Assembly (NCBI GenBank): GCA_964016885.1
Contig: OZ024751.1
Coordinates: 13,082,001 to 13,146,000 of the forward strand
DNA from: Eledone cirrhosa
Taxonomy: Eukaryota
Direction: 5' to 3'
Length of the DNA: 64,000 nucleotides
Shown here: positions 34,192-35,885 of the stretch, in pieces
How the letters are laid out: every line of letters starts with the position of its first letter
Numbering within the stretch: the stretch's first letter is position 1
Made by a program: the position numbers and the translations under genes
The notes under the pieces: generated by a model
The model's database searches: none
Seen by the model: only the letters and a program-made list of their open reading frames with translations
What the model was told of the DNA's origin: nothing

Positions 34192-35089
34192 TACATATAT
34201 ACACACACACACACACACACATATATACACACACACACACACACATATATACACACACACACACACACACATATATACACACACACACACACACACATAT
34301 ATACACACACACACACACACATATATACACACACACACATATATACACACACACACACACATATATATACACACACACATATATATACACACACACATAT
34401 ATATACACACACACATATATATACACACACACATATATATACACACATACATATATATACACACACACATTATATATATATATATATATATAAATACATA
34501 ATCGGAGAAAGCTAAAAGCGATACTCCGGCCAAATTCCAGCTCACTCAAACATTAGGAAATACCTGAGTATATTCCTAATTAAACGTTTGGGGTGCTAAC
34601 TATATTGTATTGTGTGGAAAATTGTATTATTTCATATGAGATATATAAAATATCTCATTTCCCAGACGATTCGTTTCATTATAAGATTTCTACAAGTTGG
34701 GTGAAATTATACCAAGTTATGTAGAAGCTTGTATAAGATCAACAGATACTTATACAAGTGGGCTCTTATAAATCTTCAGTGGGTGCCCAATAACATTAAT
34801 ATTGATAACTAAATCAATATCAATGTTTAGCGATAATCACCACAGTGCTTAACGGAACTGCTAGGTTGTTATTCCAGCAGTTCTAAAGAAAATTTCACAC
34901 TGTCACGAAAATAGGTGGAAATATATATATATAAAAGAAAATTTCGCTCTACATGGCTGAGTACAATAAATGTAATTTGAGTTTTTCAAATAACATTCGA
35001 TTCGTTTGCAATTTTGCAAACAAGCCTCAATTTTATAGCCATGTCAGTAGAATGAACACTTCATTCTTGCTCGTGTTGGCATGCGAACA

Positions 35090-35139
35090 GAACTGCAGAC
35101 ACTAATGTTTCTGGGTATCACCCTTCATCAGTACAGCTC
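35090..35139 (-). ncRNA. Minimal type I hammerhead ribozyme
   Basis: GAGCTGTA-CTGATGA-A-GGGT-GAT-ACCC-A-GAAA-CA-TTAG-TG-TC-TGCAGTTC: 8-bp stem I (two G.U), GUC cleavage triplet. Confidence 0.8.
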
Positions 35140-35216
35140 ACTGTTCACCTGCCAAACTGTCAGGGCTAGTGAAAATATATGCTATTTTCAAAAATACACA
35201 GTGACTGATCCGCCTG

Positions 35217-35257
35217 ATTTGCATATTAGCAGATCCACTGATCAGCCAGATTTGCAT
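35217..35257 (-). promoter_or_regulatory. Two octamer motifs (ATGCAAAT) in a short direct repeat upstream of the hammerhead
   Basis: ATTTGCAT at 35217-35224 and 35250-35257; one is retained in the inverted copy. Function is inferred only. Confidence 0.35.
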
Positions 35258-35634
35258 ATCAGCAGACTGGCCAGTCAGTTTCCTGTATACGAGCGATAAA
35301 TGGCCGGCTTTGCCAAATTCAAATAAAAAGAAAATTTCGCTTTACATGGCTGAATACAATAAATGTAATCTGAGTTTTTTTAATATTAATAATAACATTC
35401 GATTCGTTTGCAATTTTGCAAACAAACGTCAATTTTAGAGCGAAATTTTCTTTGAATTTGGCAAAGCCGGCCATTTATCGCTCGTATACAGGAAACTGAC
35501 TCGCCAGTCTGCTGATAAGCAACTCTGGCTGATCAGTGGATCTGCTAATATGCAAATCAGGCGGATCAGTCACTGTGTATTTTTGAAAGTAGTATATAAT
35601 TTCACTAGCTCTGACAGTTTGGCAAGTGAACTGT

Positions 35635-35681
35635 GAGCTGTACTGATGAAGGGTGATACCCAGAAACAGTGTTTGCAGTTC
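35635..35681 (+). ncRNA. Hammerhead copy with a 3-nt deletion in stem III (probably impaired)
   Basis: GAGCTGTA-CTGATGA-AGGGTGATACCCA-GAAA-CAGTGTT-TGCAGTTC. Confidence 0.65.
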
Positions 35682-35885
35682 TGTTCGTATGCCAACACAA
35701 GAACAAGAATGAAGTGTTCATTCTCCTGACATGGCTATAAAATTGAGGCTTGTTTTCAAAATTGCAAACGAATCGAATGTTATGTTTATATTCGAAAAAC
35801 TCAGATTACATTTATTATATATATACACACACACACATATATATACATATATGTATGTATATATATGTATACATACATACAAGTG

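What the first reader, a model, noticed from the sequence alone, without database searches (positions are those of the whole stretch)
34933..35816. 393-bp unit with tandem octamers, a TATA-like box and a GUC hammerhead, in direct and inverted copies
Seen: one full unit, a partial direct copy, and an inverted copy that spans the unit-unit junction. On the ribozyme strand the order is two ATGCAAAT octamers, an AT-rich box (GCATATATTT / GTATATAAT), then about 40 nt later a minimal hammerhead. I see no ORF. Established: 170-400-nt tandem units with minimal hammerheads (non-LTR retrozymes) yield circular RNAs, and PLE pLTRs have a similar layout. Inference: a self-promoting, self-cleaving small mobile RNA unit. 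Because the inverted copy crosses the junction, its template was probably tandem or circular.
Basis: partly seen in the sequence, partly recalled or inferred. Interest (0 to 1): 0.72.

Follow-up and report, generated by a model that had tools for sequence, protein, structure and literature searches.

The report
Octamer-bearing hammerhead repeat, Penelope-style insertion
This is one insertion of a very abundant 393-base non-coding repeat in an animal genome; it carries a predicted self-cutting hammerhead RNA, was likely copied in by Penelope-type jumping-gene enzymes, and may carry its own snRNA-like promoter, as a newt repeat does.

Summary
The repeat is real: a 393-nt unit (34933-35325), a 116-nt partial direct copy and an inverted copy (to 35816), lying tail-out between (TA)n runs. 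Three corrections: only the full unit keeps GUC and both octamers (the inverted copy has GUU, a 3-nt deletion and one octamer); the hammerhead is canonical type I in shape, not PLE-minimal; and the TATA-like box is one arm of a hairpin and is off type-3 spacing. In a public run of the organism that holds it best, 6117 contigs map to the unit, with many head-to-tail and inversion joints and a variable number of 33-bp octamer repeats. The unit closes on itself without an ORF, so it is a non-LTR-retrozyme-type repeat, not a bare pLTR. The insertion shows PLE footprints: partial tandem, inverted copy, microsatellite target and a 32-nt tail on one arm only. Rare shared alleles tie both arms to one source. 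Common variants spare predicted base pairs (6 breaks against 11 expected). Self-cleavage, circles and promoter activity are untested. An snRNA-type promoter in a hammerhead repeat is already known from newt satellite 2. Verdict: new member of a known kind, with useful evidence on who moves it.

The parts
34921..34932 (.). Left (TA)n target microsatellite
   Evidence: sequence
34933..35325 (-). Full 393-nt unit (left arm); ribozyme strand is minus; 3' end at 34933
34933..34964 (-). 32-nt 3' tail present on the left arm and missing from the outer end of the right arm (PLE-type tail)
   Evidence: tail described in PMC8557442 and PMC11167929
34933..35097 (-). 3' domain after the cut site: chain of predicted hairpins (z -3.1)
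35076..35156 (-). Type I hammerhead with extended helix I; core 35131-35098; predicted cut between 35098 and 35097; A.A at the base of helix II; helix III is a 10-nt palindrome (two G.U)
35168..35188 (-). AT-rich 'TATA-like' box, which is the 3' arm of an 8-bp hairpin
35185..35205 (-). Candidate PSE-like box (TCAC...GAAA); likeness to vertebrate PSEs is recalled, not tested
   Evidence: sequence
35204..35266 (-). Two 33-bp quasi-palindromic repeats, each with a perfect octamer (35217-35224, 35250-35257); copy number varies in the family
35326..35441 (-). Partial direct copy: the 3' 116 nt of the preceding unit
35436..35441 (.). Inversion junction with 5-of-6-nt microhomology between the two arms
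35436..35816 (+). Inverted arm: last 18 nt of one unit, then a unit lacking the 32-nt tail; one perfect octamer (35550-35557), one 6/8 (35517-35524)
35643..35673 (+). Decayed hammerhead: GUU, 3-nt deletion breaks the helix III palindrome (self-duplex -4.2 against -8.8 kcal/mol)
35817..35925 (.). Right (TA)n/(CA)n microsatellite

Best explanation
This is one insertion of a high-copy, ORF-less 393-nt hammerhead repeat, likely a non-LTR retrozyme that is predicted to cut its own tandem transcripts and was likely reverse-transcribed into a (TA)n microsatellite by the enzymes of a Penelope-like element (PLE). Steps: (1) Shown: the family is abundant, occurs head-to-tail and closes on itself without an ORF. 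(2) Inferred, about 40%: tandem copies are transcribed from an internal snRNA-type promoter (octamer repeats plus a PSE-like box), starting near the 5' edge of the hammerhead, probably by Pol II and reading into the next unit; otherwise by read-through from outside promoters. (3) Predicted: a monomer folds with its core shut (CUGAUG paired to helix III), and two adjacent units pair through the helix III palindrome as a double hammerhead, releasing 393-nt monomers that could be circularised. (4) Inferred, about 80%: a PLE RT/GIY-YIG protein nicks both strands of AT-rich DNA and starts cDNA at two internal sites 32 nt apart. The two cDNAs run past the unit junction and join by microhomology, which gives the tail-out, partly tandem, inverted structure seen here. 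(5) Shown: the arms have since drifted 4.3% apart and the inverted arm's ribozyme has decayed.
For: Hammerhead core with helices I-III; 3 of 20000 shuffles pass the descriptor. Helix III palindrome; a double hammerhead is 10.3 kcal/mol more stable than two single ones in a tandem transcript. Unit 393 nt, GC 39.7%, no ORF, circle fold z -5.6 over 60 shuffles. Run X1: 6117 contigs laid, summed depth 1.4e4-4.9e5 against 6-16 for single junction contigs. 5 of 15 joints shown in table 5 (of 26) and 10 of 12 in table 5c (of 65) are head-to-tail, with different linkers; 5 of 15 are strand switches at different points. Common X1 alleles break predicted pairs 6 times of 22 against 11.2 expected (P=0.011), while inverted-arm differences break 6 of 12; the 3 alleles in helix I all keep pairing. 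PLE footprints match PMC8557442 (partial tandem, inverted 5'-truncated copy, 30-40-bp tail at one end, (TA)n targets) and PMC11167929 (both strands cut and extended, AT-rich targets, two RT starts bounding the tail). Tail is 32 nt. Both arms share alleles that are rare in X1: 35211C <=0.12% and 35014T <=4.9% of depth.
Against: No RNA, cleavage or promoter data. Helix II opens with A.A where a G10.1-C11.1 pair is described as highly conserved (PMC4209133); a U.U there still cleaves in axolotl. The double hammerhead is still 8.0 kcal/mol above an inactive fold. Rfam does not score the motif. No PLE ORF lies in the window; the nearest RT is R2-like. In the anole PLE, hammerhead cleavage was not needed for insertion and no reads ended at the cut site. 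Octamer: 9.4% chance per shuffled unit, no excess conservation (P=0.37); the core and helices II-III show none either (P=0.13). One deep X6 contig and one shallow X5 contig carry changes in the core or helix II. Depth of contigs is not a copy number, and the pairing test uses one copy's fold and alleles that are not independent.
Confidence: 0.68

Rival explanations
1. Same retrozyme, but the octamers are not a promoter. They are a by-product of a palindromic 33-mer kept for RNA folding, and transcription comes from outside by read-through.
For: The two 33-mers pair with each other through the octamers' UGCA in a -31 kcal/mol hairpin, and the TATA-like box is a hairpin arm. A near-octamer word recurs in a palindrome of the 3' domain. 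Chance of an octamer 9.4%. Common alleles spare pairs over the whole unit.
Against: A perfect octamer is the family consensus, is multiplied in variable number and lies 12 nt before a PSE-like box and just upstream of the ribozyme; newt precedent.
Confidence: 0.45
2. The copies are pLTR remnants of an ORF-bearing PLE whose body lies elsewhere.
For: All insertion footprints are those of PLEs; pLTRs hold promoters and hammerheads; the window has other hammerhead-bearing fold-backs in (TA)n.
Against: After the tail the sequence returns straight to the unit start in both arms and in many X1 contigs and one X4 contig. No ORF follows the hammerhead (the ATG in the core meets a stop after 8 codons), whereas the anole PLE ORF starts at stem II. 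Helix II is short and helix I long, the reverse of PLE min-HHRs. An internally deleted PLE derivative is not excluded, but would amount to the best explanation.
Confidence: 0.12
3. A U6/7SK-like Pol III gene unit: octamer, PSE and TATA drive a roughly 210-nt RNA that ends at the U-rich tract at 34941-34933.
For: T4-T5 runs occur only in the promoter-like part and at the very 3' end; compact octamer-PSE-TATA promoters exist (H1).
Against: PSE-like box to TATA-like box is about 24 nt start to start, against 36 (chicken 7SK) and 35 (S. japonicum U6). A T4-free stretch of that length arises in 30% of shuffles. Such an RNA would lack the promoter, yet the inserted arms include it and cross the junction.
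Confidence: 0.1
4. A once-active family whose hammerhead no longer cuts; it spreads as uncut multimeric RNA carried by the PLE enzyme.
For: A.A at the base of helix II; inactive fold favoured; cleavage dispensable for an anole PLE in vitro.
Against: No allele at or above 5% of X1 depth in the core or in helix II-III pairs among the rows shown; helix I alleles keep pairing.
Confidence: 0.15
5. A DNA-level repeat (satellite or fold-back/MITE-type element) with a chance hammerhead-like motif.
For: Inverted arms and many small palindromes.
Against: Descriptor passes 3 of 20000 shuffles; arms are unequal, inversion points differ between loci, and depth falls toward the 5' end of the ribozyme strand (weak hint).
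Confidence: 0.03

Closest known systems
Animal non-LTR retrozymes (Cervera and de la Pena 2020, PMC7229834; parts 1-4 of 6 read: all results and discussion; supplement not readable)
   Same: Type I hammerhead in a 150-450-bp, low-GC, non-coding tandem unit; dimer-type helix III; predicted self-paired circle; size close to the mussel repeats (350-390 bp).
   Different: A.A at the base of helix II. Variable-number octamer repeats. Here a dispersed, PLE-shaped insertion with tail and inversion, where the paper only proposes PLEs as the likely mover. The paper's main text does not mention cephalopods, microsatellites or an endogenous promoter. Expression and circles untested here.
Newt satellite 2 (Coats, Zhang and Epstein 1994; not held; seen only as title and one citing sentence in PMC2220036)
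   Same: Hammerhead tandem repeat of about 330 bp with an internal snRNA-type promoter used by Pol II; that it has an octamer and a PSE just upstream of the ribozyme is recalled.
   Different: There the promoter is shown by experiment, here only by motif. No sequence comparison was possible. Helix III here has 3 pairs; the newt type has 1.
PLE pseudo-LTRs with min-HHRs, and non-autonomous PLE derivatives such as MRC1 (PMC4209133 parts 1-2 of 4 read; PMC8557442 and PMC11167929 passages)
   Same: Partial tandem, inverted copy at the 5' side, tail at one end only, AT-rich or microsatellite targets.
   Different: No ORF on either side of the unit; hammerhead geometry is canonical rather than minimal.
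Schistosome SM-alpha hammerhead SINE-like repeats (review passage, PMC6765202)
   Same: Self-cleaving tandem repeat in which the promoter of one unit serves the next.
   Different: SM-alpha uses an internal Pol III promoter; here the candidate is octamer/PSE-type.

Membership tests
Animal non-LTR retrozyme | Type I hammerhead core with helices I-III | tested here: met
   3 of 20000 shuffles
Animal non-LTR retrozyme | Canonical geometry: helix I 6 bp, helix II 4 bp, short palindromic helix III, loop-loop contacts | tested here: inconclusive
   Helix I and III fit; helix II is A.A plus 3-4 pairs; tertiary contacts cannot be computed
Animal non-LTR retrozyme | Tandem unit of 150-450 bp, GC below 50%, many copies | tested here: met
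   393 nt, 39.7% GC; 6117 contigs and head-to-tail joints in X1
Animal non-LTR retrozyme | No coding capacity | tested here: met
   longest Met-ORF 39 aa sense, 72 aa antisense in a dimer
Animal non-LTR retrozyme | No LTR, PBS or PPT | not tested
   no LTR pair seen; PBS and PPT were not searched for
Animal non-LTR retrozyme | Highly self-paired predicted circle | tested here: met
   68% paired, z -5.6 over 60 shuffles; both outer domains fold on their own, z -3.1 and -2.5; prediction only
Animal non-LTR retrozyme | Self-cleavage in vitro | not testable with these tools
   needs an assay
Animal non-LTR retrozyme | Expressed as unit-length linear and circular RNA | not testable with these tools
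   only contigs could be laid
PLE pLTR of an autonomous element | Adjacent RT plus GIY-YIG ORF | tested here: not met
   none in the window ORF list; the nearest RT is R2-like; tail returns to unit start
PLE pLTR of an autonomous element | min-HHR: helix II 7-8 bp, helix I 4-5 bp with ill-defined loop | tested here: not met
   helix II 3-4 bp, helix I 6-8 bp plus distal helices
PLE-type insertion (mechanism) | Partial tandem with inverted copy at the 5' side | tested here: met
   5 strand-switch joints among 15 shown
PLE-type insertion (mechanism) | 30-40-bp tail at one end only | tested here: met
   32 nt at this one locus
PLE-type insertion (mechanism) | AT-rich or microsatellite target | tested here: met
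   (TA)n on both sides; such runs are very common in this window
snRNA-type (SNAPc) promoter | Octamer ATGCAAAT upstream | tested here: met
   2 perfect in the unit, no variant row within them among 40 shown; not above chance
snRNA-type (SNAPc) promoter | PSE 40-70 bp upstream of the start | tested here: inconclusive
   candidate 35205-35185 resembles vertebrate PSEs by recall; no host snRNA promoter and no start site available (one search gives the position rule)
snRNA-type (SNAPc) promoter | Type-3 (Pol III) TATA about 35-36 nt after the PSE start | tested here: not met
   about 24 nt here against 36 and 35
snRNA-type (SNAPc) promoter | DSE at -250 to -170 | tested here: not met
   octamers end 12 and 45 nt before the PSE-like box; the compact H1 promoter is a known exception
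snRNA-type (SNAPc) promoter | Drives accurate initiation; binds SNAPc and a POU factor | not testable with these tools
   needs RACE, reporter or binding assay

The most novel reading that the evidence does not exclude
An invertebrate retrozyme (probably in an octopus; host recalled from genome style, not tested) has, like newt satellite 2, captured an snRNA-type octamer/PSE promoter, tunes it by multiplying a 33-bp octamer repeat, keeps its hammerhead shut in the monomer and opens it only in tandem, and is moved by PLE enzymes. That would make snRNA-promoter capture a recurring route to self-expressing circular RNA parasites, and give direct genomic proof of the PLE partner.
Probability: 0.25. 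Interest if true: 0.62.

Novelty: new member of a known kind. Interest (0 to 1): 0.38.

Why it matters
Two points left open in the 2020 retrozyme paper are which reverse transcriptase moves animal retrozymes and how they come to be expressed in most tissues. This locus carries PLE-specific footprints (one-sided 32-nt tail, tail-out inversion, microsatellite target) on an ORF-less hammerhead unit, and a concrete promoter candidate. Both can be tested on a family that seems to have thousands of copies. If the promoter is real, it would also be a compact expression cassette for a host with few genetic tools. If not, the finding is an ordinary new retrozyme family.

Tried and rejected
No whole genome is held, so no genome-wide catalogue and no search for the PLE partner or the host's snRNA promoters. 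Rfam: 0 matches at gathering in the window; no hammerhead among 40 weak rows. Two exact-pattern scans of metagenome contigs found nothing. A window pattern for octamer plus PSE-like box found 0 because I set the gap too long for the known site; uninformative. Sequencing runs: no RNA holder listed. 12 rows hold part of the stretch, in 8 studies under 9 organism labels; I laid 4 (X1, X4, X5, X6). The small shares I did not lay are no evidence, and X4 and X5 may be relatives or samples that contain the host's DNA. X6 has no cover at 35297-35325. ARAGORN found no tRNA. Earlier scan findings: nothing by sequence, place or first word search; 8 other hammerhead-repeat notes did not bear on this one. 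The neighbouring RT was considered as partner and rejected as R2-like. Lone octamer at 34062-34069 shares only 12 nt with the unit. Literature: 9 searches ran; none listed a paper that by title or abstract describes this family, an octopus retrozyme or a mollusc PSE. The giant squid genome paper counts 235 Rfam hammerhead-1 loci without analysis (passage). Coats 1994 and Lunse 2016 were not held. The supplement of PMC7229834, with the axolotl and mussel unit sequences, could not be read; it could show whether those units hold octamers too.

Full report
Setting. The window is AT-rich animal DNA crowded with (TA)n and (CA)n runs and small repeats. No whole genome is held. No tool named the host. 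Its style and a 191-bp SINE-like unit remind me of octopus genomes; that is recalled, not tested.

Observation. BLAST of 34933-35325 against the window gives three matches: itself, a partial direct copy at 35326-35441 (85% over 116 nt) and an inverted copy to about 35816 (92% over 372 nt). The ribozyme strand is minus for the left arm and plus for the right, so both 3' ends point outward into (TA)n. The full unit has CUGAUGA at 35131-35125, GAAA at 35111-35108 and GUC at 35100-35098; my descriptor passed 3 of 20000 dinucleotide shuffles. The inverted arm has GUU and a 3-nt deletion in helix III; the partial copy has no hammerhead. Perfect octamers: two in the unit, one in the inverted arm, and two elsewhere in the window. 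The two in the unit come from one 33-bp duplication, and 9.4% of 20000 shuffled units hold at least one. Rfam does not score the motif.

The ribozyme. Helix I has 8 contiguous pairs, or 6 pairs, an internal loop and a 6-pair distal helix, and extends further. Helix II is A.A plus 3-4 pairs. Helix III is 3 pairs whose 10 nt form a palindrome with two G.U (self-duplex -8.8 kcal/mol; -4.2 in the inverted arm). PMC4209133 defines canonical animal hammerheads by helix I 6 bp, helix II 4 bp and a short palindromic helix III, and schistosome PLE min-HHRs by helix II 7-8 bp and helix I 4-5 bp. This motif is nearer the first. The free monomer folds with the core paired to helix III (-35.4 against -29.2 kcal/mol with the core open). 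In a tandem transcript the double hammerhead is -163.3, two single ones -153.0 and the best inactive fold -171.3. So a dimer switch is predicted but not shown, and the A.A is a real doubt: G10.1-C11.1 is described as highly conserved, though an axolotl motif with U.U there cleaves.

The family. Twelve of 15 listed runs hold part of the stretch; I laid four on the unit. X1 gave 6117 contigs with summed depth 1.4e4-4.9e5, while single junction contigs have depth 6-16. That points to the order of 10^4 copies, but the tool warns it is no copy number. Of 15 joints shown (26 in all), 5 go back head-to-tail (4 in X1, 1 in X4), 5 switch strand at different points and 5 skip. Of 12 linker rows shown (65 in all), 10 are head-to-tail, each with its own A-rich linker. 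A 35233-to-35205 joint in X1 and X5 record 18 show copies with three 33-mers. None of 40 variant rows shown (of 48) lies in an octamer, but with 23 common sites in 393 nt that has P=0.37, and P=0.13 for the core and helices II-III (I kept only rows at about 5% or more of X1 depth). Against conservation, one X6 contig of depth 644 changes 35108 and 35113 (0.02-0.04% in X1), and one X5 contig of depth 2.3 has deletions at 35123 and 35128. Of 22 common alleles at 21 sites (two indel-adjacent sites dropped), 8 are unpaired, 8 keep a pair and 6 break one, against 11.2 breaks expected (P=0.011). Twelve differences of the inverted arm break 6. This is modest evidence for selection on RNA shape; the fold comes from one copy and the alleles are not independent. 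X1 depth falls from about 4.5e5 near the 3' end to under 1.1e5 near the 5' end, a weak hint of 5' truncation.

Not a bare pLTR. In the anole PLE the ORF starts at stem II of the hammerhead and RT starts inside the ORF. Here the ATG in the core meets a stop after 8 codons, the longest Met-ORFs in a dimer are 39 and 72 aa, and the tail leads straight back to the unit start in both arms and in X1 and X4 contigs. The nearest RT (37471-40876) is R2-like. The unit fits the non-LTR retrozyme description in size, GC, tandem habit and predicted fold (68% paired, z -5.6).

How it got here. PMC8557442 describes PLE insertions as partial tandems with an inverted 5'-truncated copy, a 30-40-bp tail often at one end only and, for Naiads, a bias for (TA)n. 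PMC11167929 shows a PLE protein cutting and extending both strands at AT-rich sites and starting RT at two internal sites that bound the tail. The left arm here ends 32 nt beyond the right arm, the arms meet at a 5-of-6-nt microhomology, and both cross a unit junction. Both arms carry 35211C (at most 0.12% of X1 depth) and all three copies carry 35014T (at most 4.9%), so they stem from one source. They now differ at 15 of 348 positions. I infer one event in which both ends of a break primed cDNA on multimeric or circular RNA. Partial copy and unit differ at 7 of 107 positions, which does not separate a circle from a tandem transcript. The 2020 retrozyme paper only proposes PLEs as movers, so this footprint is the most useful part of the finding, though it rests on one locus plus five strand-switch joints. 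Other hammerhead-bearing fold-backs in (TA)n in the same window show the geometry is common in this genome.

The promoter. On the ribozyme strand the octamers start 160 and 127 nt, a TCAC...GAAA box 107 nt and the AT-rich box 85 nt before the cut. A PSE sits 40-70 bp before the start, and in humans a TATA after it selects Pol III. PSE start to TATA start is 36 nt in chicken 7SK and 35 in S. japonicum U6 but about 24 here, and the AT-rich box is a hairpin arm. A type-3 reading therefore fits poorly. A TATA-less Pol II snRNA-type reading would put the start at about 35145-35140, the 5' edge of helix I. Newt satellite 2 is reported to use such a promoter (citing sentence and title in PMC2220036; the original was not held; its octamer and PSE are recalled). 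The likeness of the box to a PSE is also recalled; I found no mollusc PSE to test it. The rival is that the palindromic 33-mers serve RNA folding, since they pair through the octamers. I put the promoter at about 40%.

Verdict. A real, well-formed new family of a known kind, with first-reader details partly overstated. Nine literature searches listed no paper that describes it by title or abstract; repeat databases such as Repbase or Dfam could not be checked, and the unread supplement of PMC7229834 may bear on octamers in other retrozymes. Interest 0.38; up to about 0.6 if the promoter and the PLE link are confirmed.

Noticed in passing
window 36720-41250 (-): R2-like non-LTR retrotransposon, two frameshifted ORFs (39323-40876 with zinc fingers; 37471-39438 with RVT_1 and a restriction-like endonuclease end); its 3' end abuts a short stretch at about 36680-36722 that I recall as the 28S rDNA R2 target, here outside an rDNA array.
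   Followed up: partly
window 1278-1316 (+), 12457-12495 (-), 17204-17242 (-), 57727-57765 (-): A second hammerhead family with a GUA site and U.U at the base of helix II; all four copies end at (TA)n and two lie in fold-backs, like PLE 3' ends.
   Followed up: partly
window 3312-3366 (-) and 3503-3557 (+): Tail-out inverted pair between (TA)n runs with a hammerhead-like motif with an AUA site and a long helix II.
   Followed up: no
window 29536-29602 (+): Single GUC hammerhead-like motif with long helices II and III between (TA)n runs.
   Followed up: no
window 52016-52584 and more than ten dispersed sites such as 16547-16687, 28814-29010, 33340-33530, 44203-44358: 191-bp SINE-like unit, three times in tandem at 97% and widely dispersed.
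   Followed up: no
run X6, record 23, on window 35076-35145: A 321-nt contig of depth 644 shares the hammerhead region but has other flanks and two changes in core and helix II that are 0.02-0.04% in X1. It may be a sister family or one strongly over-represented locus; the library type is not on record.
   Followed up: no
window 34062-34069 (-): Lone octamer 870 nt from the unit, sharing 12 nt of context with the unit's octamers.
   Followed up: partly
window 16092-16169, 23047-23126, 28124-28200, 31859-32116, 33236-33344: Further short fold-back insertions, several next to (TA)n runs.
   Followed up: no
window 42732-44022: 35-bp minisatellite, 37 copies at 96%.
   Followed up: no
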